Counted from the first letter of the stretch, positions 16,555-39,485 are shown. The stretch: 64,000 nucleotides of DNA from a virus (IMGVR_UViG_3300013121_000023:96001-160000); one strand, 5' to 3'. Numbers and translations are program-made. Notes: a model not told the origin generated them from the letters alone.

Positions 16555-17073
16555 ATGACGACACGAAAGTTTGGGTTTGGTTCTATCCGTGTGGCTCGTA
16601 ACTTGATTGATATCGCAAGAGTAGATATCAGAAAATACGAGATGAGGATAGCCGCCACGCAAGCGTTGTACGACGTTTGTAAGGAGCTGATCAAGAGCGG
16701 AACTCTTATGGGTATCAACGCCCGTACAGTTTTGCTGCTTATGGCTTATCTCAAAGGTAGGTATTATGACGATGTTGAGAGAAAGCAAAGCGCTACATCA
16801 CGAAAATTTTTGAACGCCATAACCTTCAAGATACTGCATGACATAAAGTCAATCTTCCCAAATAAAGACAGTTTGAAGAACGTAGCCTTCGAACACATCA
16901 AGTTGGACGGCGCTGGTGGTTTTGCTGACTGGGTAGCATCCTGCGGAAACAACGTGGTTTCGGTGCCGCCTGGAACCAAGAAGGCCAGAAAGAAAGCTTA
17001 CGCCGAAAGAAGGGCTGCGCGAGTTAAGAAGGACATGGAAATGACTCATACAGCGAGTGACTTCAAAGCTTAG
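16555..17073 (+). CDS. basic hypothetical protein, in frame with downstream Pth2 across a TAG
   Basis: AAGGAGG SD; LLMAYLKGRYYDDVE motif; ends TAG 17071-17073. Confidence 0.7.
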   Translation: MTTRKFGFGSIRVARNLIDIARVDIRKYEMRIAATQALYDVCKELIKSGTLMGINARTVLLLMAYLKGRYYDDVERKQSATSRKFLNAITFKILHDIKSIFPNKDSLKNVAFEHIKLDGAGGFADWVASCGNNVVSVPPGTKKARKKAYAERRAARVKKDMEMTHTASDFKA

Positions 17074-17382
17074 AGGGTATATGTGGTGGTGTGTGACGAT
17101 CTCCCCAGCAGCTCACAAAAAGCTGTTCAGGGAGCACACGCACTCACCCAGTACATTCTACGTAACTTGCAAGAAGCCCAACAATGGGAAAAGGACTCAA
17201 ACGTCCTTGTGTTTCTGCGGGTGCCCGACGAGCAAGCCCTTATTTCTACAGCTGACAAGCTGAAGATTAATGGCGTTCCGGTGGAGGTGTTTACTGAGCC
17301 CGATTTGGGTAATAGGGCTACAGCACTGGCTGCGTCACCGTCAGCAGCCAAGCACCTCAAAAGATACCCACTGATGAAGTTA
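17074..17382 (+). CDS. pth2: Pth2-like peptidyl-tRNA hydrolase domain ending at TTA
   Basis: RVYVVVCDDL..QKAVQGAHA..W..LVFLRV..E..L..FTEPDLGN..TALA..YPLMK then TTA 17380-17382 right before a terminator. Confidence 0.75.
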
Positions 17383-17384
17383 CG

Positions 17385-17418
17385 AAAGCGGGCCTCGGCC
17401 CGCTTTCTTTTTAACTAC
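17385..17418 (+). terminator. intrinsic terminator
   Basis: GAAAGCGGGCC-TC-GGCCCGCTTTC plus TTTTTAACTA. Confidence 0.8.
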
Positions 17419-17487
17419 CAAACATTATTCATTTACAGACATAAGATGTGTGAGAAAAAGACGTATTCTCAAATATAGGAGAAATCT

Positions 17488-18222
17488 ATGCGCGCTCTTC
17501 CGATGATTGAAGCTGCTCCACATAAAGGCCAACTCTACTGTTCAGTGCGGTATGCAAAAAATTACGTAGCTGATAAAAAGGATTTCTTTATGCGTCTATT
17601 TAGCAAGCTCGGTACGCATACATGCGCGCCAGCAGCACACTGCTACACAGGAGATCCAGTAACCATATCTTCCATGTATTACGCATGCCCATTTTTGACG
17701 CATATCAAACCCACTTACCACAGATTGTCTTATCGGTGCGACCTGTTTGAAGATAAACTATCCACAGTTATCCCCAACAATACGGGAATACCGTTTCACA
17801 TATACGACTTTGAAATGCTTATGAATAGTCTGCAACGTGAAAATCAGATTGCTGTAGGTACTGCCATACAACTTCAAATTGGTCGTTTGTGGCAATGTCG
17901 TCAGCTACAAGAAGATTTGACTATGCATGGACGTTATCTCGGAGAAAGCAGAGATGGTCGCTCATCAGATGGGAATCATACGTCTGGTCTAAATATGATT
18001 CCATTTATAATACGTACCGATGGCGGTCAGTCGTCTGACAAGATTTCACTCAATGCGAAAAAGGAGGTGTTCTTGAAAACGCTACTTAATCCATCACCAC
18101 CAGTGACACAGATATACCCAATGTCGGCAGCACTTGATGAACTGCATACAGCCGACGAGATGAAAACAGCGAGGAGTCGTTATGAAGAGATATTGAAAGA
18201 GTTGCCGAAAGTGGATGAATTA
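17488..18222 (+). CDS. cysteine-cluster protein (YkgJ-like spacing) ending at TTA
   Basis: CPFL..YRC.LF..CRQLQEDL..HG; TTA 18220-18222 removes a 56-nt overlap with the next gene. Confidence 0.55.
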
Positions 18223-18286
18223 TCGTTGAAGACAACTTTTACTCTGTGCTTCTGTAACGTAAGCGCTGTCTCGTTTTTAGAAAGGT

Positions 18287-19426
18287 GTGAACATGTCGTA
18301 TTTCTTCACAAAAGACGATCTCTCGGTATCATACGGAACTAATCTGTATAACTGTTTGTACGATAATGACTTTTGGTCCAGCCTGTTGTCCAGAGTCTCG
18401 CTCAGACTAGGAATGTCTGCTTACGTAGGAAATGTTGGCGACGCTAGATCTAAAATATCGAAAGATAACTTCGATAAGCTAGTGTCTATTCTTAAAGAGA
18501 GTTGTTTTACTAAAGTCTACTCAAGAGGTGATTATCCGTCTTGTGAAGAGGTATATCTATCCGTAGCTGGATACGTGATTGTAGACGTATTCCAGGATAA
18601 CCATACATTCATATATGTAGGAATGTTCGATAGGGAGTCTGTTAGTAAGCTTAAATCCAAAATAGAGCATCTTGTAGAAAAAGTACCTGAAAATAAAGTT
18701 GATAACATACCGCGGGTACACGTCGTAGTTCAAACATCTAGCGGCCTAGACACTAGGGAATTTAATAGTGTCTATTGCAAGCTAGTTCGGGATAACTATG
18801 ACGCGCGCGTTCTTTCGCAGTGGGACAACGTTATTTCTGAGTTCAAGAAATCCGAGCCTGTGGCTAGAATGGCCATACTGAATGGCCCGCCAGGCACCGG
18901 TAAAACACATCTTATAAAGTCCATGCTGTTTGAAGATGGATTGTTTTGCCTTCTTCTGCCAAATGATTTGTTTGTAAACGTGGCCTCACCGGCCTTCCTC
19001 AACTTCTTGATAAATACAGCAGGGAGAATTTCACAGAAGTTGGTTCTTATACTTGAGGACGCCGATAGTCTATTGGAGGAGAGGTCCAACAAAGACGACG
19101 TTAATCCATTGGCGACGCTGCTCAATATGGCAGACGGAATATTGGGTAGAATATTGGATGTTCGTATGATTTTGACTACGAATAGAAAAGATCAAACGTA
19201 TGACGCCGCTACCCTGAGAGCTGGTAGGCTTCTTCACAACATAAACGTAGATAAGTTGGAAAAGAATGGTGTACTCAAAGCCTTTAGAAACATACTGGCT
19301 GACAATGGGATGTCTGAGAATGACATTCATTGCGAACTAGAAAAATTCGCGGCGGATCGCATGTCCATTGCCGATGTATATGCGATGGCGTTTGATGTGC
19401 TCAACAAGAGAAGAGAAGCAAAATGA
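18287..19426 (+). CDS. AAA+ ATPase
   Basis: GPPGTGKT, ILEDAD, TTN, LRAGRL. Confidence 0.9.
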   Translation: MNMSYFFTKDDLSVSYGTNLYNCLYDNDFWSSLLSRVSLRLGMSAYVGNVGDARSKISKDNFDKLVSILKESCFTKVYSRGDYPSCEEVYLSVAGYVIVDVFQDNHTFIYVGMFDRESVSKLKSKIEHLVEKVPENKVDNIPRVHVVVQTSSGLDTREFNSVYCKLVRDNYDARVLSQWDNVISEFKKSEPVARMAILNGPPGTGKTHLIKSMLFEDGLFCLLLPNDLFVNVASPAFLNFLINTAGRISQKLVLILEDADSLLEERSNKDDVNPLATLLNMADGILGRILDVRMILTTNRKDQTYDAATLRAGRLLHNINVDKLEKNGVLKAFRNILADNGMSENDIHCELEKFAADRMSIADVYAMAFDVLNKRREAK

Positions 19427-20505: not shown

Positions 20506-20524
20506 GGTTTAAGTCATAAGAATT

Positions 20525-21033
20525 ATGAGATGTTTAATTAGAGACCCCTCCAAAGAGGGTCTGCCTACAAACCCGGGCAGATGAAAACATAAAAGTGGGT
20601 TCTCAGTTAATGCGACATTAACTGAGTGTCTTGAAACCAAGTCCATAGTATGGACTCTGGGATGTGCCCAGCACATATACCCAGCACATATCGCGGCTAG
20701 CGCCCCGCGATTGGCTTGCGGCAAGGCAAGGTGTCAGTCACTCAAGGTAAGGTGTCGTTGCTACACGCCACCGAGTGACGACGTATAGGGTTTCAGTGTG
20801 AATCCCAGTGGGGGATAGCACGAAGTAGCATTTACAGCCCTATATTTCAAGCCTCCGCAATGTCATAGAAAGCAAGCATACAGCTAGAACGTTCATTCGC
20901 GAAGCTCGCTTTTCTTGTTCGGCGAGTTAGCACAGAACGATGCTGTGTGTTTGAGCCGTAGCGCAGCGGCGTAGGATATATTTTATCTGTGTGTGTGTGT
21001 GTGGGCTGCCGGAATAACCGGCAGCCTTTTTTT
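20525..21033 (+). ncRNA. candidate large structured ncRNA (~500 nt)
   Basis: no credible ORF; more than ten stems; starts after a CATAAGA motif, ends in a strong terminator. Confidence 0.6.
21003..21033 (+). terminator. intrinsic terminator
   Basis: GGGCTGCCGG-AATAA-CCGGCAGCCT plus T-tract. Confidence 0.85.
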
Positions 21034-21051
21034 AGTACCGATGGAGAAGCC

Positions 21052-22050: not shown

Positions 22051-22058
22051 TAATCTTG

Positions 22059-22091
22059 AGAAGGTCCGCTTGGCGGACCTTCTTTTAGCTA
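22059..22091 (+). terminator. intrinsic terminator
   Basis: GAAGGTCCGC-TTG-GCGGACCTTC plus TTTTAGCTA. Confidence 0.8.
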
Positions 22092-22141
22092 TTAAAAAAA
22101 ATGTCTATTACAGCAATAAGAGGATTGAAAGGAACGTGGCT

Positions 22142-23942: not shown

Positions 23943-23943
23943 C

Positions 23944-24558: not shown

Positions 24559-24645
24559 CATATTTGTAATAGATAGTATTTGCGAAGAGAGGTTTATTCT
24601 CTCTTCTTTAGATATTCTGTAATAAGAGATTTGGAGGTAGGTACC

Positions 24646-25776
24646 ATGGGTTCTTTTGATTTCACCTGTGCTATTTCACGTATGCCGATTAGCTATGAGC
24701 AGCGAGCTATCTTGCTACTATTGGCAGGTAATGAGAGTGTCAGTAACAAAGGTTGTTCACCTAATGACTGGTGGTTCCCTTGGTCATTTCCAGTGTGTGC
24801 TACGTATAAAGATTATGGCAGGTTTGTACCTGTGTCGTGCCATGACGTATGGGAGAAAGTTCTACAGAAATATGTTGTGGTGAAGGAAGTAGGAGAAAAC
24901 GAGTATCACGATGTACCCACACACAGGAATATGAAATTCGAAGATATAATAGAAGCATGTCTAGAAGATAGACTGGAAATAACAGATAATGCAGGCGTAG
25001 TTTACCAAAACGCGCTTGAACTAAACGATGAAGCCAGTACGTATATACCAACAGTAAATAAAATACGTCGCATCATAAGTGGTATAATGAAAAAAGACGC
25101 AAATGATTTCTTGATAAGAAGGATAGGTAGAGGCGTTATTAACGTAAGCACCCGCATAGGCTCAACCATAAAAGCTAATAAGTTCTTTTCCGCTATGTGT
25201 AAATTCATAAACAGTAGAGCGACCTTCACATCTATAGTGACACCTGGTAAATACGAAGTCACTCTAACTATTTACGCAAAGCCTGGTAACTTTCATATGA
25301 ATCCCGACGAGTCTATGGCTGGTGAACCACCGACCAAAATGCCAATGGCTTTCATGGCTATAAGAGGCGATGTTTGGGATTATCTGAGTTCTACTAACTA
25401 TACTGGTTTGACGAAAAAGAAAATACAGGCAGACATAACACGACTGAGAAAGTTCGTGGATTCGTATAAGAACGAGCCGGAAAGTATGAGATACCACCTG
25501 TGTAAACTTGATATGTCAATTGAGTCACGCATATTTATAGATGGTGTTCTTGGACCTATGAGGTGTGATAGGTCACCGCATCTGTTGGTGGGCAGTAGCG
25601 AGAAAGAAGAGTTCTGGCGACTGGTACGTGCTTTCGCTACGGCTATGCCGGCTATACACAGACTCAGACACATGCTCGTGCCGTCCACGTCAGTTGGGTG
25701 GCAGGTGGATTATGGGGAGGCGCACGTTCGCGCCTATAAAGCGTTTGCTCAGATGGCTGGAAAAGGGAACAAATTA
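24646..25776 (+). CDS. hypothetical phage protein ending at TTA
   Basis: GGAGG SD; MGSFDFTCAISRMPI..YKDYGRF; TTA overlaps next ATG (TTATGA). Confidence 0.7.
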
Positions 25777-26836: not shown

Positions 26837-26847
26837 GGAGAGCACGT

Positions 26848-27393: not shown

Positions 27394-27406
27394 GAAAGAT
27401 TGTTTG

Positions 27407-27479
27407 TAGGACGCCCGGGACTTGAACCCGGAACCTGCGGATTAAAAGTCCGCTGCTCTACCTATTGAGCTAGCGACCC
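27407..27479 (-). tRNA. tRNA-Lys(UUU)
   Basis: cloverleaf; GCGGA-CTTTTAA-TCCGC; GGTTCAAGTCC T loop. Confidence 0.9.
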
Positions 27480-27490
27480 GAAGGAGAACC

Positions 27491-27787
27491 ATGACAACAG
27501 CAGCGCGCATGAGGGATTTGGTGGGCGAATATACCAAAAAAGTCATTAGTGAAAATGAGGAACATATAAATGAAAACTTGCTACCGATATTCCTTAAAGA
27601 CTTGTATTCTTGCATAGAATCAGCTGCATCTAAGGGACAGCGCACATACCAACATGCTATAAATCTTACAACCTTGAAGGTGCTGCATTTGGTTGTTCCA
27701 CAATTGAGAGATCGAGGTTATTTGGTAGAGTATATTACTAGTAGTACTACACAGCATCTTATGTACATGAACGTATCTTGGTCATTA
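27491..27787 (+). CDS. hypothetical protein ending at TTA
   Basis: AAGGAG SD; ...NVSWS then TTA 27785-27787 before the shared terminator. Confidence 0.6.
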
Positions 27788-27791
27788 CTTG

Positions 27792-27827
27792 GTAGCTAAA
27801 AAAGAAGAGAGCGAAAGCTCTCTTCTT
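27792..27827. terminator. bidirectional terminator
   Basis: AAAGAAGAGAGC-GAAA-GCTCTCTTCTTT between convergent genes. Confidence 0.8.
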
Positions 27828-28205
27828 TAAATACTTGAATCTATGCGCCTCAATGTATGAGGCCATTACCTCTGCAATGTAGTCGGGGGCAATTCCCCGA
27901 AGTGCATTGCGACTGAGCACTTTTGCGGTACCCTTCCCCCACGGTACCTTCACTGCCTCAATATATGGTTTGCCCTCCCCTTCTGGATGGCGCATTGTTA
28001 GCAAGTGTCTCGCTGCCTGCATCAGCAGGGAGCTTACCTCCTTCGGCTCCTCCAGCCAAAGGATGTGGATTACTGGGTGGTTCAGCACCACCCTCAATTG
28101 CTTTATGGTTTCTTCATTTGCAATATCAGTGTACCTAGTGCCCTCATGTACGAATGTCCTAATGTCCAACAGGGCCTTCCGAAGGCCCTCTATGTTTTCG
28201 TACAT
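27828..28205 (-). CDS. hypothetical protein (APEY family) ending at TTA
   Basis: AGGAGG SD; LNHPVIHILW..IAPDYI; TTA 27830-27828 abuts the terminator. Confidence 0.65.
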
Positions 28206-28318
28206 AGTACCTCCTTTCATATATCTTATGCCATTTTTACGAATAAATTAAGGTACACATAAGTAATAATCGAGGGGCTAAAGAAATGGAAGGATAGCTC
28301 CATCTCTAATAAGTGTTG

Positions 28319-28390
28319 TGCCCCAGAGAGGAATCGAACCTCCTTTAGCCTCCTTGTAAGGGAGGTGCCGGACCAGCTGGCTCCTGGGGC
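28319..28390 (-). tRNA. tRNA-Val(UAC), non-canonical D arm
   Basis: GCCCCAG/CTGGGGC acceptor; CCTCC-CTTACAA-GGAGG; GGTTCGATTCC. Confidence 0.8.
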
Positions 28391-28395
28391 AACTG

Positions 28396-28686
28396 TAACT
28401 TAGATATATCCAAAGAAAGGGAAATCAGCATACCAATGAATTGGTCTCTTCCTTTTTCTACTTCTGTTATGAATTCCGAAACCAATTTGGTTTCGGTCGT
28501 GCCATTTGACTCTATTGTCATGTTCATGTTATGAAAACATGACGATGCTGAATCTGGCCATATTGTGTGTGATACTTTATTAAACCGTTTGTGGAATAGA
28601 TGCCACGCATCTCTAAAGCAGTCTGTTACATAGACCATAACCACCAGTTCTTTTCTTTCTGTGTCCTTTATGAAGTAAACGTTCAT
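28396..28686 (-). CDS. hypothetical protein ending at TTA
   Basis: TTA 28398-28396 ends the ORF 5 nt before tRNA-Val instead of running through it. Confidence 0.6.
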
Positions 28687-28722
28687 TCTTCATTCCTTTC
28701 ATTTTTACTCATATAGTAACAG

Positions 28723-28796
28723 TGGGACCACTCGGATTCGAACCGAGAACATCCCGGTTATGAGCCGGGGGCTCTGACCGATTGAGCTATAGTCCC
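28723..28796 (-). tRNA. tRNA-CAU (Ile2-like or elongator Met)
   Basis: CCCGG-CTCATAA-CCGGG; paired G1-C72 so not initiator. Confidence 0.85.
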
Positions 28797-28875
28797 AAAC
28801 AAGCCGTTTTTAAATAAACGGCAAGGATTTATTGCATGACGTGGCCTCAGCCCGCCTTATCTATGCAATACATCG

Positions 28876-28947
28876 AGCCCACTATGGGATTTGAACCCAT
28901 GACCTACGGTTTACAAAACCGTTGCTCTACCACTGAGCTATGTGGGC
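28876..28947 (-). tRNA. tRNA-Thr(UGU)
   Basis: ACGGT-TTTGTAA-ACCGT. Confidence 0.9.
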
Positions 28948-28950
28948 AGG

Positions 28951-29060
28951 AGCGACAGGCCCGAGTCGAACGGGCGACCAACGGAAAACCGCTGCTCTAC
29001 GGGGCCATCACCAGACAGAACGTTACTTGTCTGGCTTGTGACCTACTGAGCTACTGTCGC
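28951..29060 (-). ncRNA. tRNA-like RNA with D-loop insertion and no anticodon loop
   Basis: GCGACAG/CTGTCGC acceptor, intact T arm, ~45-nt hairpin in D loop, anticodon arm reduced to GCGG-TTTT-CCGT. Confidence 0.7.
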
Positions 29061-29083
29061 AAAAAAGGCTTATATAGCCTTTG

Positions 29084-29155
29084 TGGATCGTCTAGGAATT
29101 GAACCTAGGCACAGCGCTTATAAGACGCCGCAGGGCAACCAGCCCGTCACGATCC
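29084..29155 (-). tRNA. tRNA-Ile(UAU), non-canonical D arm
   Basis: GGATCGT/ACGATCC; GGCGT-CTTATAA-GCGCT; GGTTCAATTCC. Confidence 0.8.
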
Positions 29156-29234
29156 ATAAGAGGTACACCGGAGACCCGATGAAGCCTTCCGCCAGCATGG
29201 TAGGAAGAAGGAGTGTCACCACGATGTACCTCGG

Positions 29235-29306
29235 CATCCCTGACAGGATTTGAACCTGTGACCCGGAGATTAGAAATCTCCTGCTCTTCCGCTGAGCTAC
29301 AGGGAC
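29235..29306 (-). tRNA. tRNA-Arg(UCU)
   Basis: GGAGA-TTTCTAA-TCTCC. Confidence 0.9.
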
Positions 29307-29544
29307 ATCTACGCCTTCACTCATATTTCTTATTGCGCTATTTATTTGATTTTTTCTTACGGTAGCTAAAAATAGATAGGGTTTGCTGATATAGGAGTAA
29401 GTTGGCCCGCCGTCATGATCGCCGTTATACCGGATGGAGTCTGGAGTACAGCTACTATCAACCGGGCCGAGAAGATAGATTTACAACGAACTGGTGTGGT
29501 TCGTATGACTAACGGTCTTTCGGGGCGCCTCATCAAGACCGCTG

Positions 29545-29623
29545 TGCTCTTGGCAGGAGTCGAACCTGCAAATAATAAAGCCGCTTTTGAAACGGCCGCG
29601 TCTGCCTATTTCGCCACAAGAGC
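29545..29623 (-). tRNA. tRNA-Leu(CAA), short variable region
   Basis: GCCGT-TTCAAAA-GCGGC; Leu-type GGCGAAATAGGCAGACGC D arm. Confidence 0.85.
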
Positions 29624-29682
29624 TTTGGCCGTCACCCCCCACACCAACTACTAGAGCTGTGTGGGGGGGGGGTTTCGTAGGT

Positions 29683-29781
29683 AGACCCCGAGTTAGAAAG
29701 CCGTTCTGCATCTTCAGTATTCGGCGAAGAAAAAGAGAGTTGCACTCTTTTCGGGCGTGTATGGCTTTCTTGGTGGGGTCT
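29683..29781 (-). ncRNA. Y RNA-like element 2 (T-arm containing)
   Basis: terminal stem AGACCCC/GGGGTCT and AGAAAGCC/GGCTTTCT; internal AAGAG-TGCAACT-CTCTT; shares motifs with 29871-30016. Confidence 0.5.
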
Positions 29782-29865
29782 TGGAAAGCGAAGAGGAATT
29801 GAACCTCTTATCTCCATTTCGGTAGTTGGCCTAGATGGATGGTTTTTGCCTTTAACCTACGCTTC
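29782..29865 (-). ncRNA. tRNA-like RNA with 17-nt anticodon loop
   Basis: D stem GGTT/AACC; TCCAT-(17 nt)-ATGGA; AGAGG-TTCAATT-CCTCT; ends CCA. Confidence 0.6.
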
Positions 29866-29870
29866 ATAAT

Positions 29871-30016
29871 GAGACCCGAGTTACTGCACCATTGTCCTTG
29901 TTAGGACTGGTTTTGGTTACCAGTTGCCGACCACCGGCACCTACCCCTTATACGGGGTAGCTAGGATTCGAACCTAGTTTTTGGGGTTGCGTGTAGGATG
30001 CAGTTGTTTGGGTCTC
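29871..30016 (-). ncRNA. circularly permuted tRNA-like RNA inside a long closing stem (Y RNA-like)
   Basis: order T arm, closed acceptor hairpin, D arm, anticodon arm; ends paired GAGACCC/GGGTCTC and ACTGCA/TGCAGT. Confidence 0.7.
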
Positions 30017-30018
30017 GG

Positions 30019-30100
30019 TGCTGAGAGAGGGACTCGAACCCTCACGGTTTTACCCGCCGGTACCTAAAACCGGGGCGTCTACCTATTCCGCCACCTCAGC
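30019..30100 (-). tRNA. tRNA-Leu(UAG)
   Basis: CCGGT-TTTAGGT-ACCGG; long variable arm. Confidence 0.9.
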
Positions 30101-30174
30101 AAGAAAGGGTGTAAGTAACGTGTGTAGGGACGAACGGCGAAGAACATCCAAGTACTCACGTTAAGCACACCCTG

Positions 30175-30253
30175 TGGGGTAGATAGGGATCGCACCTATC
30201 AGCTCTGGGCAGCGGTTTTACAGACCGCCTGAAGCACTAGCTTCGTCTACCCC
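30175..30253 (-). tRNA. tRNA-Tyr(GUA), atypical D and T loops
   Basis: GGGGTAG/CTACCCC; GCGGT-CTGTAAA-ACCGC; T loop TGCGATC. Confidence 0.75.
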
Positions 30254-30842: not shown

Positions 30843-30846
30843 AGTA

Positions 30847-31940: not shown

Positions 31941-31942
31941 GG

Positions 31943-32587
31943 TTACACCTGCGTAAAGACGAAGATGACATCAAACGCTCCCTGAGTCGTATTTGTCACG
32001 AACTTCAGGTGGATACCCTGACCGGCCCTTATGGTAATCGGCTTCTGTACAGGGTCTCTCTTAGCTCTAGCTGGCAAGAAGTTGGCGATGGCCTGCTGCG
32101 CACCTTCTTGGTCTAGTGTACCAGGGCCCCACTCATCAGTAGATATCCTGATGATATCTAGAGGCTGGGCTTCTTCTGTGCCGCCCAATGTAGCACCGGT
32201 ATGCATCACAATACCTGCGCCAAGAGAATCATCCGTATCATGTGCTCTAGGCGTAACAGCCGTACCACCAGTAGGGGCGACTGTATGTGACCACCGTACC
32301 AAGTTGAACTGTCCCGCAACGCCTGTAACCGCCGTAGTTTGGGAATTTCTCAGGTAGTACTCTCGTAGCTTCACTACCTTTGTAGAACCTACGGGATTAT
32401 ACAGAGACAGCATTGACTTGTTGAGAGTCAGAGCTGCGCCAACGGCGATACTGGTAAACGTAGCTTCTTCCGTAGGGGCCTGTGTAACAGCAAACCTGTA
32501 CACACCATTATCTAGGATGATGTTTACAGGGTTGCCGCTGGGATCGCGTACTACGACATCTCCCTCTATTACTGAGAAGGCGCCCAT
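31943..32587 (-). CDS. hypothetical structural protein
   Basis: 214 aa; ATG overlaps upstream TTA. Confidence 0.6.
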   Translation of the reverse strand: MGAFSVIEGDVVVRDPSGNPVNIILDNGVYRFAVTQAPTEEATFTSIAVGAALTLNKSMLSLYNPVGSTKVVKLREYYLRNSQTTAVTGVAGQFNLVRWSHTVAPTGGTAVTPRAHDTDDSLGAGIVMHTGATLGGTEEAQPLDIIRISTDEWGPGTLDQEGAQQAIANFLPARAKRDPVQKPITIRAGQGIHLKFVTNTTQGAFDVIFVFTQV

Positions 32588-33132
32588 AACGTCTCCGTGG
32601 TGGTGATGCTGGTAACGCTTCCACCTGCTCGTGTAAACACATGTGTGAGCGTCTGCACCAAAACGCCAGACCCATCGTACTGATTTTCTACTACTTGGCT
32701 CACAAGGCCGCCAGTTCTTGTAAGAATAGCCTCTCGTACTTTTATGAGTTTAGCTGGGCTAGTCCACACAGTAACAGCCGCAACCCTACCGGATGTTCTA
32801 CTTATTTCCGTGTAACAAGTTTCGGCTAGATCGTGGACCAGACTATCTATTACTTCATGAGAACCTGGAGTGAGACCACCACCACCTGTAACCATGTCTG
32901 TTAGAGACACTGGTGTTGGGTTGGTGCCGTCTTTGAATTTAAGATCGTTTCCATCCCTGAATATTAGAACGCCGTAGTCTCTATTTGAAGCATCCTGCAC
33001 ATAAAGACCAGCCGACTCCAGAGCGTCCTGTTGAGGATTTATTCCAGCAGGGTAGGGAAAGTTCTGTGCATCTTGCCCACCATCTGCCGTACTTTCGGTT
33101 TTGTATACCTGAACGCGCTCTGGAGTCGGCAT
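32587..33132 (-). CDS. hypothetical structural protein ending at TTA
   Basis: GAGG SD, ATG 33132; ...TTTET then TTA overlapping next ATG. Confidence 0.6.
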
Positions 33133-33140
33133 GGCTAACC

Positions 33141-34337
33141 TCAAGGCTTCTTGCCGAAGTCGTGAATCTTGACCATCAGGTCTGTTGTGTTCTTGGCCAC
33201 TCCTACCAAGACGACGCGATTGCCGCCGCCGGGTGGAGTTGCTTGTATACCGCCTGTGGGGGCCAAGTAATAATTAGACCCAGCTGTTAGGCCACCAATT
33301 GCGATCAAACCGCTGCTGGTGTAGTTTACGGCCGCAGGGGATGTAACCGCAGCTCTAGCCAGGCCCATGACAAAGGACTTGGCGTCTGTGTCTGCTCTGG
33401 CTTTGCCAGCCGTGTTCGCGGTTGTTGTGTAGTAGATAGGATCGCCTATGGACAGGTTGTCCGCTGTCGCAGAAACAGTATCAGCCACTCTCTTATGATC
33501 GTGAATGTCACCAACATAAGATGGTGTTGTGGAAGTACCGTCTACTAGCAGATTAACGTTTGCAGCAGTAACAGCAGCGCTGGTAGCTACACCGTTTATC
33601 TCAAACAGGGAAGGCAGACCCTTGACCGATATACCAGAAGCGCCGATCTGTAGTGTCGTACCATTTAGCTTGATGGCGACACCAGCAGCAGTTACCTGAA
33701 TGGCGCCAGTAGTGCCATCCGGTTTTACGGCCAGTTTACCGTTGGGAGATACGCCAACAAACTGTAGACCTGGCGTTGTGTCTAGCTCTACAGAAAATTC
33801 GTTACCCGACAGTATAATGCCGTCACCACCTGTGTAACCGGTGGCACTGGAGAACTGGATAAACGCCAGGTTATTTGTATCTATTACAGCTGGCGCGTCT
33901 GTGGTGCAGACCCAAGCTGTGTCTGCGTACAGTGTTCCCTGTGTAGCCCACACAGCTGTATTTTCTGCGTCGCCGCCAGTAGGGAAGTCGGCCGGTCTAG
34001 ACCACGCACCGGCCGCAACAACCCAAATACCGTTTTGAGACGCTGTTGACTGGGCGGTCAAAAGAACGCGGTCACCAGCAGTGGTAGCAATGCTGTCGAT
34101 GTTTGGAGTACCAGACAGCGACGCGATGTTAGCTGTAGCTACGAGCTTTACCGGATTTTTCCAAGAAAGACCGTAAACAACGCTGTCTACGTATGCTTTC
34201 GTAGCGGCATCTCCAGCGCTTGACGGTGTTCCAAGGTTGACTACACGACCACCCTGCATATCAAGGTGATCGCCAGACGCGAAGTCAGAGAAATAGTTGT
34301 ATGTGGCGTCACGGAATACGGGTTTGTTCGTAGCCAT
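33141..34337 (-). CDS. tail fibre/head decoration-like protein
   Basis: DAATKAYVD..WK.PV..GDRVLL..Q....QNGIW fibre domain; C-terminal GLTAGSNYYL..VGVA cement-like domain. Confidence 0.7.
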   Translation of the reverse strand: MATNKPVFRDATYNYFSDFASGDHLDMQGGRVVNLGTPSSAGDAATKAYVDSVVYGLSWKNPVKLVATANIASLSGTPNIDSIATTAGDRVLLTAQSTASQNGIWVVAAGAWSRPADFPTGGDAENTAVWATQGTLYADTAWVCTTDAPAVIDTNNLAFIQFSSATGYTGGDGIILSGNEFSVELDTTPGLQFVGVSPNGKLAVKPDGTTGAIQVTAAGVAIKLNGTTLQIGASGISVKGLPSLFEINGVATSAAVTAANVNLLVDGTSTTPSYVGDIHDHKRVADTVSATADNLSIGDPIYYTTTANTAGKARADTDAKSFVMGLARAAVTSPAAVNYTSSGLIAIGGLTAGSNYYLAPTGGIQATPPGGGNRVVLVGVAKNTTDLMVKIHDFGKKP

Positions 34338-34347
34338 TTGATACCTC

Positions 34348-34758
34348 TTATGGGTGCATGTTTATGCGCCCGGTATCAACATCATACGCTACGTTGTCCC
34401 AGTTCCCTATATCGTACTTCTCACCCAAATCTTTCTTTAGCTTTTCTATTTCGGCGGTTTTGTCTTTTGATTTTTCGTTTAGAAAAGCCACTCGTTCATT
34501 TATGCCGCGCATAGTGTGCCCTACTTGAAGCTCTGTGATACGAGCTTTTAGCTTGGCCACTTCTATGCTCATAGATGCTATTGCAGCATCTTTCTCAAGC
34601 ATTGACTTGTTCAGCTCTAGGTTGTCCCTTTCAGTCTCAAGAAGATTTATCTGTAGCAGGTCTTCTTTGCTGAGATATTTAGCTGCTGGTGCATCTACCT
34701 CTGGCATTCTTGTGTTGGCGCCTTTCGATGGTTCCTCTGCAAGCATCACGTCTTCCAT
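34348..34758 (-). CDS. coiled-coil protein (possible fibre chaperone)
   Basis: heptad-rich; C-terminal L.EKY..DTG.I. Confidence 0.6.
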   Translation of the reverse strand: MEDVMLAEEPSKGANTRMPEVDAPAAKYLSKEDLLQINLLETERDNLELNKSMLEKDAAIASMSIEVAKLKARITELQVGHTMRGINERVAFLNEKSKDKTAEIEKLKKDLGEKYDIGNWDNVAYDVDTGRINMHP

Positions 34759-35234
34759 AACAGTCTCCTGTAAAGCTCTAGTGAAGGTTTCACTATGAGC
34801 GTATTTTCGTCCAAAGCCTGACCAAACGTTTGATGATAACCAGATGCAGGCGGTGTCGTAGATAGTGTGCCTGTTGCAGATACCCAGTATCTTGCATTTG
34901 GCGTAAAACCAGGTTTTTGATAAATGCCGTATATAAGTACGGCTACCTGTATCGGGTTTATGACAGCCGTAACAATACCTATAGCTGGCATTTTATTTAT
35001 GTCTGACACATCAGCTACGTCCACTGTAGGTAGGCCACCAGAAGACATGCCAGACACATACACTACGTAGCCAACGCCTGCTGTGGAGTTGTTAGCTACG
35101 ATGGTTTGGTTCAGGGGCCATAGATTAGCAAGAATAGCCTTTCTGGTTTCACCAGACTGAACGATTGGAACAAGCTCGGCACCGGTAACAGCCGATGCTG
35201 GGTTTAGTTGGCTTATCTTCCTGCTAACCGCCAT
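34758..35234 (-). CDS. structural protein ending at TTA
   Basis: KISQLNPA..GAELVPIVQSG.T.K N-terminus; PAIGIV..YWVSATG.L..TPP; TTA overlaps next ATG. Confidence 0.65.
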
Positions 35235-35238
35235 GAGT

Positions 35239-35376
35239 TAACTCTTGCAGCAGATAGCCGCCGTCTTCTTGAACTAGGTCGTCTGTATTTTCACACAGAA
35301 TATGTCCGCCCTCATCATCTTCATCTCGTACTTGGTACGGGCGGGCATGTAGGTGGGAATTCGTATGTATCGGCAT
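35239..35376 (-). CDS. 45-aa peptide starting and ending at TTA junctions
   Basis: MPIHTN...ILCENTDDLVQEDGGYLLQE then TTA 35241-35239, 4 nt before next ATG. Confidence 0.55.
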
Positions 35377-37952
35377 AACCAGTCATCCTTCTTTTGGGGC
35401 GCGCTCCAACCATCGCCTTCTACAGACTCTTCTAGCTTAGATACCTGTTTGCGCAATCTACGCAACTTAGATATATCGGAGTCTTCTTTCCATTTCTTAG
35501 CTGCATCCAACTGAGACAGGGCCATCCTGCTTATGTCTCTATCCCATACTGCGTTCGATACTGATTTGCCCAACAAACCAGCTATCTGTGTACCTGCCAA
35601 TAGAGTTGCTAGTCCCCTAGTTTTTGGATTTTCAAATCCTCTTACGTAGGCTGGTACGGTCATCAGGGCTGATAGGCCGGCTTTTGGAGCGTTCTCTCTC
35701 AGATCTTCCACTGTTTGCCCTAGAAGGGATCTTCTAGCTACCTCTTCAAGAGCGTTTGCTTTAGCCGGGCTTTTATTAGCCTCAACCGCCAGATTTTTTA
35801 TTAGACTAGGTGCGTAGCTCTCCGCCATAAGACCACCTAGAGCACCAGCACCAGCACCAGCTAGTAGGCTAGTAGCGGTTGGTACAAATAGAGACGATCT
35901 TACGGTTCGTTCATCGACGTTTCTGTTGAGAAGATTGGGTAGCAGCGCACCGCTAAACATCCCCACTACTGGGTTTATAGCGCTAAAACCAACACGACCG
36001 GCACTGGCTAGTTGTAGGCGCAGTTTATTTGCCGCCAATTCGTTCTTACCCTCATCTGTCATCTTAAAGTTGGCGCTACCGGCTGTCTTTAGGAAACCTA
36101 TAGACTTTTTGAAATCGTCCATAGGAACTGAATCTATACGGCCTATTATGGTGTCTTTGTAGGCAGGACTACTGTGAGCTAGAAACATCTTCCTGGCTTC
36201 TCCCTCAGAGTTAAATCCTAGCATTACTTTGTTTTCGTCGAACTTGCCGTTCAACATTTGCTTTATGATGAATGCTTTATCAGCATTTTTGTTCGGGCCT
36301 AGATATACGTCTGTCTCCTCTCCGTCTTTGTCTTTCGTGCCAGGTATAAAGCCGTAGTCTGTCTTGTACTTTCTGGTCCAGGCAGGCAGACCGTTCTTAC
36401 CGTCAAACTTCTGTAGGAATCCCTTTGGTCTATCTACATGGACAGGAATTCCTTGAAATTCAGTTTTCTTGTGTACCTTGTCTGACGCTGTTTTCTCGTG
36501 CTGCGGAAGAAGATCTCTGAATTGCTTTATCAGGTCTTCTTTCTTTTGCGACATATCTGACAAGTACTCGTCAACTGCCTTATCAGGAGTTCTCTTTAGC
36601 CACTTTTCATTGAACCTGGTTATCAAACCTTTTGGCCGAACACCTAGGTAGTGCTCGATCAACACTTTTCTTTCTTCTGGGGGAAGATCTGCGTGGCTGC
36701 CGTATCTGGCCGCTCTACCTTCTAGTTGCTTCAGCTTTTCTCTGTTCCAGTGTGGGTCTAGTATCTGTACCAACCTGGTACCTTTCAGGTCCAACCCCTC
36801 ACCGCCAGCAGATGACACCAACAGTGCTCGCAGCTTACCCTCGTTGTAATCACGCACCATTTGGTCTCGTTTACTGTGCGCTATATCACCCGTAAACTCA
36901 CCGAAAGGTACACCAGCTTCTTGTAGCTTTGCTTTGTACGGGTTTATGCCCGATTCCAGCCAGTTCGAGTAAACCAGAGCCTTCGCCCTAGGGTTTTCAT
37001 CGATCATTTTCTTTAGTGTTTCGAAGGCTTTGTCTATCTTAGGCTGGTGTATGACAGCATCTTCCTTGGAAAGCCCCGCTGTGGTGTTCACAGCTTGTCT
37101 GGCCGAACCAAGAAAGTTGTTCATCATGGCAGACTCCTGCTTGCTGGGAGGCAGGCCTCTTTTGACCTTTGCGGCCACCCATGGGGGCGCTTGACCCATG
37201 AGGGTGTCATATAGCTTCAGCTGGTCAGGAGTAAGTTCTACCTGTACCTGCTTGGTCTCCACATCGGGAAAGTTGTCTTTTGTCCCCGGATGGTAGTCAA
37301 CCCATTTACTGAACTTCTGTTTCAGTTCTGGTGCTTTTCTGTCGTAAAGAACCTGAATCGTTCCAGGCGTAGCTTGGTTTATATGCTTGTCCCAAAAAGA
37401 CGGCTTCACTACCTTTTCAGTTATGTACGCAGATTCGAAGTCTTTTCTGTCGTGCGGCAGTATCTTTGCATTAGCGGCAAGGTTTATGAGTGGAGCTATA
37501 TCAGCTGGATGATTGTAGAAAGGGCTACCAGTAAGCAGAAGTCTCTTATCCGCCTGTGCCCCCAAGTTTTTTATTGCTCGAAAGGTAGCGCTACCTATGT
37601 CCCTAGCTCTGTGCGCTTCGTCCACAATCATAAGTGGGTTTTCTTCTGTGGTTCCTTTCGCAGCTAGATTCTGAATGCTCTCTATATGAGCCGGCTGCTT
37701 ATGCCCCTTCAGATGCTTGGCCCTCTCTTTAGCGTAGTTGTCCCTAAGCGCGGCTGGAACAACAACGGTGCTAGGTACCCCCAGAGCATCTTGTGCAGCT
37801 ATGCTTGAAAGAGTCTTACCGCTACCCAGACCATGAACAACCAACAACCCAGGTTGGTCTTCTTTCTGAATGCGATCTACTACACGTTGTTGATGAGGCA
37901 ACAACGGTGTTTTTACCTCAGCTATCTTTAGCAAATCGTCGAGTAGTCCCAT
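35376..37952 (-). CDS. SNF2-family helicase fused to pyrophosphatase-like and membrane domains, ending at TTA
   Basis: HGLGSGKT, DEAH, LTGSP, GGEGLDL, QLEGRAAR; YGFIPGTKDKDGEETDVYLG..DENKVMLGF; hydrophobic C-terminus. Confidence 0.85.
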
Positions 37953-37974
37953 AAAGGCATCATACCCGATTTGA

Positions 37975-38016
37975 GTAGCTAAAAAACACAAAGTTATGTT
38001 TCAAACTTTGTGTCAA
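37975..38016 (-). terminator. intrinsic terminator
   Basis: ACACAAAGTT..AACTTTGTGT plus TTTTTTAGCTA on minus strand. Confidence 0.7.
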
Positions 38017-38022
38017 AGATGG

Positions 38023-38520
38023 CTACATGAACCAAAGACCTTCGTCTTCTAGCGAAGCTACTTTTAGGTCTGTTACGTTAGTTGCTGTTACTGCTTTTAT
38101 CACTGTCGTCTTTGTTATTCGCGCTTTCGTTGGTTTTCTTTTACGTACAAGAACATACTCTAGAAATGGTCTTGGATTATCTCTAAGGTAGTTATACACA
38201 GAATCCCATTCTTCTTTCGTCAAGCCGTATCTTGACGTTTTATAACTCGCATTAGCTGTCATTGCGTTCTTGAGTTGTAGCTCAAGGTCGAGCACGGCCC
38301 CCAATAGCTTATTGCGACAGTAACCACTTCGCCTTTCTGCTTCTCCCACTGTTATTATATTCGGCTTTGGTATCTTTATTCCCATAGACCTGGCTTTTAC
38401 TATTATAGACCTTTCTGTTTTTGGGTACCCCATTGCTCTAAGTGCTTGTTTAGCTGCGTTTACATTTGGCATCTTTGTTATTAGAACTCCTACCATAATA
38501 GGATTCCATCTGGTTTTCAT
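38023..38520 (-). CDS. basic hypothetical protein (possible DNA-binding)
   Basis: KTERSIIVKARSMGI helix-turn-helix-like segment. Confidence 0.55.
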   Translation of the reverse strand: MKTRWNPIMVGVLITKMPNVNAAKQALRAMGYPKTERSIIVKARSMGIKIPKPNIITVGEAERRSGYCRNKLLGAVLDLELQLKNAMTANASYKTSRYGLTKEEWDSVYNYLRDNPRPFLEYVLVRKRKPTKARITKTTVIKAVTATNVTDLKVASLEDEGLWFM

Positions 38521-39056
38521 ACAGACCTCTTTTTGTTTGGGGCAAACGAAAATCTTGTTATCTGTGATTTAGCTATAGCGTATATTTCTTCTTGTGATTT
38601 GCCTTCAACTACAACATAATCGGTTATTAGGTAGTTTTTGTCACGCCTTCCTATGGCGCGTTTACCGCTAATTACAAAACTGTAGTTGTAAGTGTTTGCT
38701 ATTACAGCGAGTTTGTTTTTATTCGCGACGTGCTCTAGTATGTATTCTGGTGCGAACACTTCTGTTAGGAATTCTGTGTCTATTATTCTACCTGCACTAA
38801 TTGGTACTCCTGCGCCTACGTATACCGCAATATATTTGCTTTCTGGTATACACAACTCGATAGACCTAGATACAGAATCGCTGTTTTCTTCGAAGAAAAA
38901 CCAAAGCATCGCATGATTAAAAATTCTGTACAATATCTCCATGCGTCTATTTGTGGATTCTTTAGCTGTTATGCTGATTGCTTTATGTACGTAGGCACTC
39001 AACTCTAGTACGCTATTTGCATCTTCTATAAGATCTATAGTACTTCTGTTAGCCAA
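38517..39056 (-). CDS. hypothetical protein (APEY family)
   Basis: IFNHAMLWFF..FAPEYI. Confidence 0.55.
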   Translation of the reverse strand: MANRSTIDLIEDANSVLELSAYVHKAISITAKESTNRRMEILYRIFNHAMLWFFFEENSDSVSRSIELCIPESKYIAVYVGAGVPISAGRIIDTEFLTEVFAPEYILEHVANKNKLAVIANTYNYSFVISGKRAIGRRDKNYLITDYVVVEGKSQEEIYAIAKSQITRFSFAPNKKRSV

Positions 39057-39394
39057 TCAGGTGCGCTCCATTTTGGCGGGTACACATCCACGTAATAGCC
39101 ACGTATCTCTGCTAGTACTTCATTTGTTACTTCTATTATTTCCATTGTGTGATCGTTCAAGTCCATTTCATCGCAGTGTACGTATAGATATCCTTCTTTT
39201 CTATAAAACGTTCCGCTGTAACCTATATGTCCACAAAACCGATAGCTTTCTACCGGGTACTCTATCCTTGTAAAAGCATCTACAAAGTAACCTATGTTCA
39301 GGTCGTCTGTAGCTGCGCCAGCATACTGTTCCAGCACTAGGTGTACATCTTTGTATATGGGTACCAGTGGTTCGTAATAGGTGAACTTGTGCAT
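39035..39394 (-). CDS. hypothetical phage protein
   Basis: YRFCGHIGYSGTFY motif. Confidence 0.65.
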   Translation of the reverse strand: MHKFTYYEPLVPIYKDVHLVLEQYAGAATDDLNIGYFVDAFTRIEYPVESYRFCGHIGYSGTFYRKEGYLYVHCDEMDLNDHTMEIIEVTNEVLAEIRGYYVDVYPPKWSAPDWLTEVL

Positions 39395-39413
39395 CTTTTT
39401 AGCGTTTCGTTAG

Positions 39414-39485
39414 CGCGGGTAACGGGACTTGAACCCGTACATAAGGATTTAGAATCCTATGCTCTACCAGTTGAGCTATACCCAC
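39414..39485 (-). tRNA. amber suppressor tRNA (anticodon CUA)
   Basis: GTGGGTA/TACCCGC; TAGCTCAACTGGTAGAGCA; TAGGA-TTCTAAA-TCCTT; GGTTCAAGTCC. Confidence 0.85.

What the first reader, a model, noticed from the sequence alone, without database searches (positions are those of the whole stretch)
16555..39485. Possible integrated termination-rewiring system (UUA stop + UAG suppressor + amber-gated Pth2 + tRNA mimics)
Seen together: TTA used as gene end, a CUA suppressor tRNA with its own promoter-like motif, a Pth2 domain behind an in-frame TAG and itself ending at TTA, Leu tRNAs for CUA and UUG but none for UUA in this window, and several anticodon-defective tRNA mimics. Inference: during infection UAG becomes leaky and UUA terminates, which would corrupt host proteins containing UUA or ending in UAG while phage genes are pre-adapted. 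Pth2 would recycle peptidyl-tRNA that drops off at UUA. The link between the parts is a hypothesis.
Basis: inference. Interest (0 to 1): 0.85.

Follow-up and report, generated by a model that had tools for sequence, protein, structure and literature searches.

The report
Phage that ends genes with TTA
In this 177-kb phage, and in at least one related phage, the leucine codon TTA never occurs inside genes and ends about 30% of them; the suppressor tRNA, Pth2 gene and tRNA-like RNAs nearby are real but look like separate accessory genes, not one wired system.

Summary
In-frame TTA is about 8-fold depleted. 93 of 136 in-frame TTAs lie within 40 codons of an ORF end. Where homologues exist, TTA sits where they stop: terminase, sheath, tube, Pth2 and others. 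Sixteen TTA codons overlap the next gene's ATG (TTATG), and nine are followed by a terminator hairpin. Strain-level copies from other samples keep five checked TTA sites, and a second phage about 55% identical in protein has TTA stops at matching positions. Relatives of similar GC read TTA as Leu.

The other parts are real too:
- a CUA suppressor tRNA;
- a Pth2 gene that ends at TTA;
- Leu tRNAs with CAA and UAG anticodons, and none with UAA;
- three tRNA-like RNAs.

The proposed link between the parts is not supported. Pth2 has its own ribosome-binding site and GTG start. It is stand-alone in 16 of 45 relatives, and those I checked read TTA as Leu. One such relative also carries a CUA tRNA. 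In 54 kb of the second TTA-stop phage I found no credible tRNA gene or Pth2.

What reads UUA as a stop is unknown; a host release factor is my best guess. Earlier notes from this scan report TTA stops in other phage genomes; I did not check them.

The parts
16555..17073 (+). Hypothetical gene ending at TAG (17071-17073). It lies in frame with Pth2 downstream, and it has no homologue in relatives.
17083..17382 (+). Pth2-type peptidyl-tRNA hydrolase gene. It has its own AGAGGG Shine-Dalgarno sequence (17072-17077) and a GTG start, and it ends at TTA 17380-17382.
   Evidence: PF01981 at 32 bits. Homologues end ...LPLLK where ours has ...PLMK followed by TTA. The sequence was read.
17386..17412 (+). 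Intrinsic-terminator hairpin and T-run directly after the Pth2 TTA. The next canonical in-frame stop (TAG 17476-17478) lies beyond it.
17488..18222 (+). 244-aa protein found only in the TTA-stop phages. It ends at TTA 18220-18222, and that position is the same in all four homologues.
24580..25776 (+). Gene whose TTA stop shares its A with the ATG of the next gene, 25776-26345 (a TTATG junction).
27406..30253 (-). tRNA array: Tyr-GUA, Leu-UAG, Leu-CAA, Arg-UCU, Ile-UAU, Thr-UGU, Met, Val-UAC and Lys-UUU. There is no Leu-UAA. Ile-UAU and Tyr-GUA are called by ARAGORN only.
28947..29056 (-). tRNA-like element 1: an acceptor stem and a T arm, with aberrant D and anticodon regions.
   Evidence: folding z-score -4.1
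29783..29866 (-). tRNA-like element 2: it carries a T arm (GGTTCAATTCC). ARAGORN calls it only when introns are allowed.
29868..30012 (-). tRNA-like element 3: a long closing stem around T-arm-like, closed acceptor-like, D-like and anticodon-like hairpins. The layout resembles a Y RNA.
   Evidence: folding z-score -4.6. It does not reach the Rfam YrlA cut-off.
27828..28220 (-). Gene with a TGGCATAAGA promoter-like motif upstream. Its TTA stop is followed at once by a terminator, and the next canonical stop lies 66 nt on, beyond that terminator.
32587..37952 (-). Run of genes ending at TTA: 35376-37952 (SNF2 helicase with InPase domain), 35239-35376, 34758-35234 and 32587-33132. TTATG overlaps occur at 35376, 34758 and 32587. 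The TTA stops of two of them, 34758-35234 and 32587-33132, recur at the matching gene ends in the second phage (locus L156).
39413..39485 (-). Amber suppressor-type tRNA (anticodon CUA, discriminator G73). The amino acid it carries is unknown.
39496..39505 (-). Extended -10-like TGTTATAAGA upstream of the CUA tRNA. It belongs to a recurring ATAAGA motif.

Best explanation
The window lies in a complete 177-kb phage genome with direct terminal repeats, from an uncultured family of 170-210 kb tailed phages.

Shown: in this phage and in a second, divergent one, TTA (UUA) is no longer a leucine codon. It ends translation and closes about 30% of genes (66 of 222), in structural and replication modules alike.

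Shown: the phage has no UUA decoder. Its Leu tRNAs have CAA and UAG anticodons. Relatives at my disposal read TTA as Leu.

Inferred history: the family is mostly high-GC (56-69%), where TTA is nearly unused. That would have let the codon lose its meaning, and it then returned as a stop when this lineage fell to 46% GC (codon capture).

Inferred mechanism: a class-I release factor reads UUA, most likely a host factor. Organelles with UUA = stop have an altered RF2 or RF1. I favour this because no release-factor domain is detectable in the phage, TTA stops occur in every 20-kb stretch of the genome, and TTATG junctions look like ordinary termination-reinitiation coupling.

Shown: the CUA suppressor tRNA, Pth2, the tRNA array and the tRNA-like RNAs are genuine. 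They are the kind of translation accessory genes this family carries with or without TTA stops, so they are not a demonstrated circuit.

Shown: Pth2 is an independent gene, not an amber-gated domain.

Inferred: the suppressor probably makes UAG somewhat leaky, and phage genes are buffered by nearby back-up stops.
For: TTA statistics.

Homologue ends:
- All 39 aligned sheath homologues end at the residue just before our TTA at codon 1037.
- Terminase homologues end at 613, TTA at 614. Tube homologues end at 1304/1305, TTA at 1305. Three more structural genes behave the same way, and one 761-aa ORF splits into two genes at its TTA.
- Pth2 homologues end where ours has TTA.

Conserved regions: in 28,800 residues covered by homologues there are only 9 TTA, and each one that lies inside an alignment sits within a few codons of its C-terminal end. 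Other Leu codons number 254-600 each. Against relative G035 this gives p = 9e-71.

Relatives: TTA aligns to Leu in G034, G040, G035 and G010.

Junctions and terminators:
- 16 TTATG overlaps.
- 9 TTA stops are followed by terminators. For three of these the next canonical stop lies beyond the terminator.

Independent assemblies:
- L157 is 99.5% identical and keeps all five checked TTA sites.
- L155 keeps the two it covers, after Pth2 and after the next gene.
- L158 is 99% identical but its TTA sites were not examined.

Second phage: SRR11567520_14838 has TTA stops at matching positions.

No decoder or factor in the phage: no UAA anticodon and no RF-1 domain.

Spread: TTA stops occur in every 20-kb bin.

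Parts occur independently of TTA stops.

Organelle precedent with altered release factors: PMC12574857.
Against: - The host is unknown, so no release factor or host tRNA set could be examined. Host-factor reading of UUA is inference only.
- Only 54 of 168 kb of the second TTA-stop phage was read, so that phage may still hold tRNAs, a suppressor or Pth2 elsewhere.
- In the focal phage all the parts do co-occur, and a functional link cannot be excluded by comparative data alone.
- The search for a release factor would miss a factor of a new fold or an RNA factor.
- No protein or ribosome data exist.
Confidence: 0.6

Rival explanations
1. UUA is an unassigned codon and is not read by a release factor. 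Neither host nor phage has a decoder, so ribosomes stall at UUA. The finished chain is then freed by rescue or drop-off, with host Pth or the phage's Pth2 hydrolysing the peptidyl-tRNA. This would give Pth2 a real role at TTA ends.
For: - There is no UAA anticodon in the phage.
- The family's ancestors are high-GC with almost no TTA.
- Translation-rescue genes recur in the family: Pth2 in 16 of 45 records and a tmRNA in G028.
- No release-factor domain is found in the phage.
Against: - Pth2 is also present in relatives that read TTA as Leu, and it is missing next to the matching gene in the second TTA-stop phage.
- 30% of genes, including major structural ones, would depend on a slow rescue path.
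- The 16 TTATG overlaps look like normal termination-reinitiation coupling.
- The distance from TTA to the next stop is no shorter than for canonical stops.
- From established knowledge, tmRNA rescue would tag the products for degradation.
Confidence: 0.2
2. The phage itself makes UUA terminate and UAG leaky during infection, for example by removing host tRNA-Leu(UAA). This would sabotage host translation, with Pth2 and the tRNA-like RNAs as working parts.
For: - All the parts co-occur in this genome.
- TAG is the rarest stop (27 of 222) and is enriched for immediate back-up stops (p = 0.02).
- The phage's top codons match its own tRNAs, which hints that it relies on its own tRNA pool.
Against: - The parts occur separately in relatives without TTA stops.
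- Pth2 is not amber-gated.
- No tRNA array or Pth2 was seen in 54 kb of the second TTA-stop phage.
- TTA stops occur in all genome modules. One is in a gene behind a sigma-70-like extended -10 motif, and I infer from that motif alone that it is an early gene. Termination would therefore have to work from the start of infection.
- No nuclease or release factor was identified.
Confidence: 0.12
3. Standard code, or an artefact. TTA is simply a very rare Leu codon that is tolerated in C-terminal tails, or the TTA codons are assembly errors.
For: The family is high-GC, and TTA is rare in many relatives.
Against: - Relatives at the same GC use TTA at 10-13 per 1000 codons without any bias toward gene ends.
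- Reading TTA as Leu would fuse sheath to tube, and would fuse other gene pairs that are separate in more than 70 relatives.
- Terminators lie between TTA and the next stop.
- The TTA sites recur in independent assemblies: two strain-level copies and a divergent phage.
Confidence: 0.02

Closest known systems
UUA = stop in organelles: Labyrinthulea/Thraustochytrium mitochondria (NCBI table 23), peDinoflagellate plastids, and UUA/UUG in Marsupiomonadales mitochondria (PMC12574857)
   Same: The same codon changes from Leu to stop. The codon is absent from gene bodies, sits where homologues stop, and no cognate tRNA is present.
   Different: Here it occurs in a tailed phage, and therefore in a bacterial translation system. 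The organelle cases are tied to altered RF2 or RF1 proteins; here no release factor is encoded and the host is unknown. That paper calls the plastid case the first sense-to-stop change outside mitochondria.
Stop-codon-recoded phages with suppressor tRNAs, such as crAss-like and Lak phages (PMC7886860)
   Same: A phage genome with a non-standard code and a phage-encoded suppressor tRNA. That paper also notes suppressor tRNAs in phages with no visible recoding.
   Different: Those phages turn a stop into a sense codon (TAG or TGA), mostly in late genes. Here a sense codon becomes a stop across all modules. TAG stays a stop, and coding density under code 11 is 95%.
Rare TTA codon and the bldA tRNA in Streptomyces (recalled from general knowledge; PMC10732093 seen by title and abstract only)
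   Same: A high-GC setting in which UUA is almost unused and its only decoder is dispensable. This is a plausible starting state for the change.
   Different: In Streptomyces UUA is still Leu and serves regulation. Nothing links this phage to an actinobacterial host.
tRNA-rich large phages that mention a peptidyl-tRNA hydrolase (XacN1, Atu_ph07, CBB, RaK2; listed, texts not read)
   Same: Large phages carrying tRNA arrays together with a peptidyl-tRNA hydrolase as translation accessory genes.
   Different: I know of no code change in them. I did not check the type of hydrolase (Pth or Pth2) they carry.
YrlA / bacterial Y RNAs with a tRNA-like domain (Rfam RF02553; biology recalled from memory)
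   Same: Element 3 has a long closing stem around T-arm, closed acceptor-like and D-like hairpins, which is a similar layout.
   Different: The only YrlA match in the region (28889-28998, overlapping element 1 and tRNA-Thr) scores 28.7 bits against a cut-off of 69, and element 3 gives no match. The phage has no Ro/TROVE protein.

Membership tests
Genetic code with UUA = stop (table-23-like) | TTA is absent from conserved gene interiors | tested here: met
   Only 9 TTA in 28,800 homologue-covered residues, each at the C-terminal end of an alignment. Observed/expected is 0.19.
Genetic code with UUA = stop (table-23-like) | TTA sits at the position where homologues have their stop | tested here: met
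   Met for sheath, tube, terminase, Pth2 and at least four other genes.
Genetic code with UUA = stop (table-23-like) | No tRNA able to read UUA in the translating system | tested here: inconclusive
   The phage has none. The host's tRNAs are unknown.
Genetic code with UUA = stop (table-23-like) | A release factor with an altered codon-reading region | not testable with these tools
   There is no RF-1 domain in the phage and the host is not identified.
Genetic code with UUA = stop (table-23-like) | The trait is shared by related genomes, not a single assembly | tested here: met
   Strain-level copies L157 and L155 keep the TTA sites that were checked, and the divergent phage in L156/L159 has matching TTA stops.
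Stop-to-sense recoded phage (TAG reassigned) | In-frame TAG inside conserved genes, or a collapse of coding density under code 11 | tested here: not met
   Coverage is 95% under code 11. TAG coincides with homologue ends (10 of 10 for genome 37161-38303). In only three cases does a TAG-ended gene run on in frame into a further gene, and in both of those that lie in the window the downstream gene has its own start.
Stop-to-sense recoded phage (TAG reassigned) | A phage-encoded suppressor tRNA | tested here: met
   A CUA tRNA at 67.5 bits.
Pth2 (PF01981) | Domain match above the curated cut-off, covering the whole domain | tested here: met
   32 bits against a cut-off of 23; residues 2-93 match profile positions 6-106 of 115. 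It aligns with the relatives' Pth2. Catalytic residues were not examined.
Programmed amber read-through fusion ('amber-gated' Pth2) | The downstream domain lacks its own start, and the fusion partner is conserved | tested here: not met
   It has its own AGAGGG Shine-Dalgarno sequence and GTG start. Homologues are stand-alone. The upstream gene has no homologue in relatives.
YrlA / Y RNA (RF02553) | Covariance-model score at or above the gathering score, and an accompanying Ro (TROVE) protein | tested here: not met
   28.7 bits against a cut-off of 69; no match at gathering level; no TROVE domain.

The most novel reading that the evidence does not exclude
The code switch is imposed by the phage during infection. 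An unidentified phage factor, protein or RNA, makes ribosomes terminate at UUA while the CUA tRNA makes UAG leaky. Host messages that contain UUA or end in UAG would then be mistranslated, while phage genes, free of internal TTA and buffered after TAG, are read correctly. This would be a genetic-code-based host takeover, with Pth2 clearing the resulting peptidyl-tRNA.
Probability: 0.12. Interest if true: 0.97.

Novelty: new variant of a known kind. Interest (0 to 1): 0.85.

Why it matters
- **No published precedent that I found.** Sense-to-stop changes of the genetic code are described only for mitochondria and, since 2025, plastids (PMC12574857). My four literature searches found no report for a phage or a bacterium.
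- **Implication for the host.** A phage clade that ends 30% of its genes with UUA implies one of two things. Either a bacterial host terminates at, or cannot read, UUA, which would be a new bacterial code. Or there is a phage-borne way to create a stop codon.
- **Practical consequence.** Standard gene callers mis-annotate these genomes. They add false C-terminal tails and fuse genes such as sheath and tube, as the database entries for this phage show.
- **Evolutionary value.** The family offers a natural series for testing how a codon changes meaning: high-GC relatives with almost no TTA, low-GC relatives that read TTA as Leu with or without their own tRNA-Leu(UAA), and this lineage.

Tried and rejected
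- **TAG recoding.** Rejected. ORFs are dense under code 11, the few in-frame TAG junctions checked have their own starts, and TAG matches homologue ends.
- **Release factor in the phage.** No RF-1 domain.
- **GGQ motif.** The protein next to Pth2 (17488-18222) has a GGQ motif, but it is not conserved in homologues. Its AlphaFold model was unusable (pLDDT 35), so no fold search was run.
- **Hidden UUA-reading RNA.** No hairpin with a UAA anticodon loop exists in the genome.
- **Y RNA reading of the tRNA-like elements.** Below the Rfam cut-off and no TROVE protein. No YrlA in two relatives' tRNA regions.
- **Origin of the tRNA-like elements and the suppressor tRNA.** No clear parent tRNA; the best match is 73-76% to a relative's tRNA-Asn.
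- **Host identification.** There are no cultured relatives. Related contigs sit in MAG bins of Myxococcales, Anaerolineales and a cyanobacterium, which do not agree with each other. Cluster look-ups gave no names.
- **Other searches that returned nothing.** A RecA-like protein search of viral contigs and a search for the suppressor's anticodon-arm pattern.
- **Locus L042.** An apparent bias of TTA toward ORF ends there was judged, from sequence context, to come from probably spurious wrong-strand ORFs.
- **Walking along the second TTA-stop contig.** One look-up failed because I trimmed the wrong end of the gene. It was redone, but 114 kb remain unread.
- **DNA of the closest sheath relative (P0002, 65% identity).** Not available.
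Full report
**Context.** The window is bases 96001-160000 of a single 177,132-bp virus record with direct terminal repeats, rated complete. GC is 46%. It encodes a large terminase, tail sheath, PolA-type DNA polymerase, DnaB-like and SNF2 helicases, a RecA/UvsX-like protein and a sigma factor. No cultured phage is close; the best match is about 31% protein identity. A search with the sheath found 437 homologues in metagenomic phages of about 170-210 kb and 70 loci in IMG/VR. Most of these relatives have 56-69% GC.

**TTA statistics.** I called genes by a greedy longest-ORF method under code 11, which gave 214-219 ORFs covering 95% of the genome.
- In-frame TTA occurs 136 times in about 56,000 codons, or 2.4 per 1000, with observed/expected 0.19.
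- The other five Leu codons run at 9-20 per 1000.
- TTA is common in the two non-coding frames, at 1027 and 475.
- 67 of 136 lie in the last tenth of their ORF, and 93 of 136 lie within 40 codons of the stop. Control codons give about 15% (p = 3e-42).
- Most of the rest lie in short, doubtful ORFs or upstream of likely true starts.
- Treating TTA as a stop costs 0.7% of coverage and gives 66 TTA, 76 TGA, 53 TAA and 27 TAG stops.
- The distance from TTA to the next in-frame stop is like that after canonical stops.
- TTA stops occur in every 20-kb bin of the genome.

**TTA junctions.**
- Sixteen TTA codons share their A with the ATG of the next gene (TTATG), often with a Shine-Dalgarno sequence just upstream. 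This compares with 2 TAATG, 2 TGATG and 29 ATGA overlaps.
- Nine TTA codons are followed within 30 nt by a perfect-stem terminator.
- For three of them, including Pth2 and 27828-28220, the next canonical stop lies beyond the terminator. Under the standard code those messages would have no stop codon.

**Homologue ends.**

| Gene (genome coordinates) | Where homologues end | TTA codon |
|---|---|---|
| Tail sheath (in 21850-25797) | 1036; all 39 aligned end ...NYIRLTLVI | 1037 |
| Tail tube (same code-11 ORF) | 1304/1305 | 1305 |
| Large terminase (3781-5730) | 613 | 614 |
| 12709-13239 | 175 | 176 |
| 13273-14427 | 379 | 381 |
| 27258-27971 | 233 | 233 |

- Read by code 11, sheath and tube would be one 1315-aa fusion.
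- The 761-aa ORF at 18249-20534 is two genes in relatives, split at its TTA codon 464.
- Across 28,800 residues covered by homologues there are nine TTA, and each one that lies inside an alignment is at its C-terminal end. Other Leu codons number 254-600 each.
- Genes without TTA end where their homologues end, and this includes two TAG-terminated genes.

**Relatives read TTA as Leu.**
- G035 (GC 44.6%) uses TTA at 12.7 per 1000 codons with no bias toward gene ends.
- In G034, G040, G035 and G010, TTA aligns mainly to Leu.
- In L011 the conserved Leu at residue 5 of the sheath is a TTA codon.
- The change is therefore specific to this lineage.

**Not an artefact, and not a single genome.**
- A 12.7-kb contig from another run (L157, SRR26835457) is 99.5% identical, differs by 53 substitutions, and keeps all five TTA stops checked in its span.
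- L155 (JGI 3300028804, 92-99% identical) keeps the TTA stops after Pth2 and after the next gene.
- L158 (ENA) is 99% identical, but its TTA sites were not examined.
- A second phage, SRR11567520_14838, is 168 kb with GC 52-54% and has 50-97% protein identity in shared genes.
  - It shows the same pattern: TTA at 3 per 1000 codons, mostly at gene ends.
  - Matching TTA stops occur after the homologues of 17488-18222, 32587-33132 and 34758-35234 and of two structural genes, several as TTATG.
- Earlier notes from this scan report TTA stops in other phage genomes, among them a 435-kb soil phage. I did not test those.

**The suppressor tRNA.** The CUA tRNA at 39413-39485 (-) is a well-formed tRNA with discriminator G73. 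An extended -10-like motif lies upstream of it. I could not assign its amino acid or its ancestor.
- TAG is still a stop, but it is the rarest one, at 27 of 222. In G035, at similar GC, it is 23 of 77 (p = 7e-4).
- 13 of 27 TAG stops have another stop within two codons, against 49 of 189 for other stops (p = 0.023).
- This fits some UAG leakiness with buffering. The signal is weak, and G034, which also has a CUA tRNA, uses TAG for 34% of its stops.

**Pth2.** The Pth2 domain is real, and the gene ends at TTA exactly where homologues of one subtype end (...LPLLK). It is not amber-gated.
- The TAG of the upstream gene overlaps an AGAGGG Shine-Dalgarno sequence, followed five bases later by GTG at the first strand of the domain.
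- Homologues in relatives are stand-alone and start at the same place.
- The upstream gene has no homologue in relatives.
- Being in frame is a one-in-three chance. TAG-ended genes are not significantly more often in frame with the next gene (3 of 23 against 11 of 181).

**tRNA set.**
- The nine other tRNAs read AAA, GUA, AUG, ACA, AUA, AGA, UUG, CUA/CUN and UAY.
- For Val, Thr, Ile, Arg and Leu (CUA), the cognate codon is the phage's most used codon for that amino acid. ATA accounts for 60% of Ile codons.
- The UUR box is served by a C34 tRNA (anticodon CAA), which cannot read UUA.
- G009 and G040 carry a tRNA-Leu(UAA). G010 and G034 carry Leu(CAA) and Leu(UAG) without it, yet use TTA as Leu.

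**tRNA-like RNAs.**
- Three elements inside the array have T-arm consensus, and two of them fold better than all 200 shuffled versions of the same sequence.
- Element 3 has a Y-RNA-like layout.
- None reaches an Rfam cut-off, there is no Ro protein, and none has a UAA anticodon loop.
- They may be working tRNA-like RNAs or relics of a once larger array; G009 has 37 tRNAs and G034 has 43. Nothing connects them to termination.

**The proposed link between the parts.**
- Pth2 occurs in 16 of 45 related records. The three I checked, G009, G010 and G034, read TTA as Leu.
- G034 has a CUA tRNA (42.9 bits) about 1 kb from its Pth2-like gene, and that gene contains a TTA for Leu.
- G028 has a tmRNA.
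- In the 54 kb read from the second TTA-stop phage there is no tRNA array and no Pth2, including beside the homologue of 17488-18222 and after the homologue of 30351-30842. The single ARAGORN call there falls inside a peptidase gene and is probably false.
- The parts therefore behave as independent accessory genes of the family. The remaining 114 kb of that contig is unread, so this is not final.

**Mechanism.** Shown: UUA ends genes, and the phage has neither a decoder nor a recognisable release factor.
- I favour a host class-I release factor, or a host that already treats UUA as a stop or as unreadable. Three things point that way: TTA stops occur in all modules, TTATG coupling looks canonical, and in organelles UUA = stop goes with altered RF2 or RF1.
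- The high-GC ancestry gives a simple route. TTA was lost first, and then reappeared as a stop when GC fell.
- Stalling with rescue, which would give Pth2 a role, and a phage-imposed switch remain possible.

**Verdict.** The core observation is real, reproducible across assemblies and shared by a clade. No search I ran turned up a published phage or bacterial case. The 'integrated system' reading is not supported by the comparative evidence.

Noticed in passing
window 28215-28230, 14785-14800, 62738-62750 and 20 other sites in the genome: A conserved promoter-like motif, (T)GGCATAAGA followed by (A/T)AT, lies 4-40 nt upstream of 23 gene starts and is often preceded by an A/T-rich run. It looks like an extended -10 element with no -35.
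   Followed up: partly
window 16027, 24325, 27792, 29362, 37975, 55544, 59127, 61139 (-) and 35092 (+): The motif TTAGCTAC occurs 9 times against 2.6 expected. It typically follows terminator T-runs directly and may be a second promoter or processing signal.
   Followed up: partly
whole genome; tRNA-Ile(UAU) at window 29083-29155 (-): ATA is by far the main Ile codon (35 per 1000, against 12 each for ATT and ATC). The phage's tRNA-Ile(UAU) has an atypical shape (3-bp D stem, 6-bp anticodon stem) and fails the Rfam tRNA model. So does the tRNA-Tyr at 30174-30253.
   Followed up: partly
window 35239-35376 (-): A 45-codon ORF is wedged between two genes. It starts in a TTATG overlap and itself ends at TTA, 4 nt before the next ATG.
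   Followed up: no
window 15688-15750 and 17384-17793: Strain differences. A 63-bp in-frame indel lies inside gene 15286-15789 (L157). A 410-bp deletion starts right after the Pth2 TTA and removes the terminator and the first 102 codons of the next gene (L155).
   Followed up: partly
window 35376-37952 (-): An SNF2-type helicase is fused to an InPase (PF18823) domain. In the relative that carries P0002, an InPase domain is a separate 199-aa gene.
   Followed up: no
L135 411-788 (relative G028); relatives G009 and G034: A related phage encodes its own tmRNA (Rfam 71 bits, tag ANDNASAVLALAS). Two others carry 37 and 43 tRNAs. The family invests heavily in translation genes.
   Followed up: partly
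genome 72404-74827 (L005 404-2827): Under code 11 the sigma factor is the tail of an 807-aa ORF. A TTA at codon 541 suggests two separate genes. I did not check this against homologues.
   Followed up: no
window 39515-39523 (-): The dCTP-deaminase-like gene just upstream of the CUA tRNA ends TAG-AAA-TAA. This is an example of an immediate back-up stop after TAG.
   Followed up: partly
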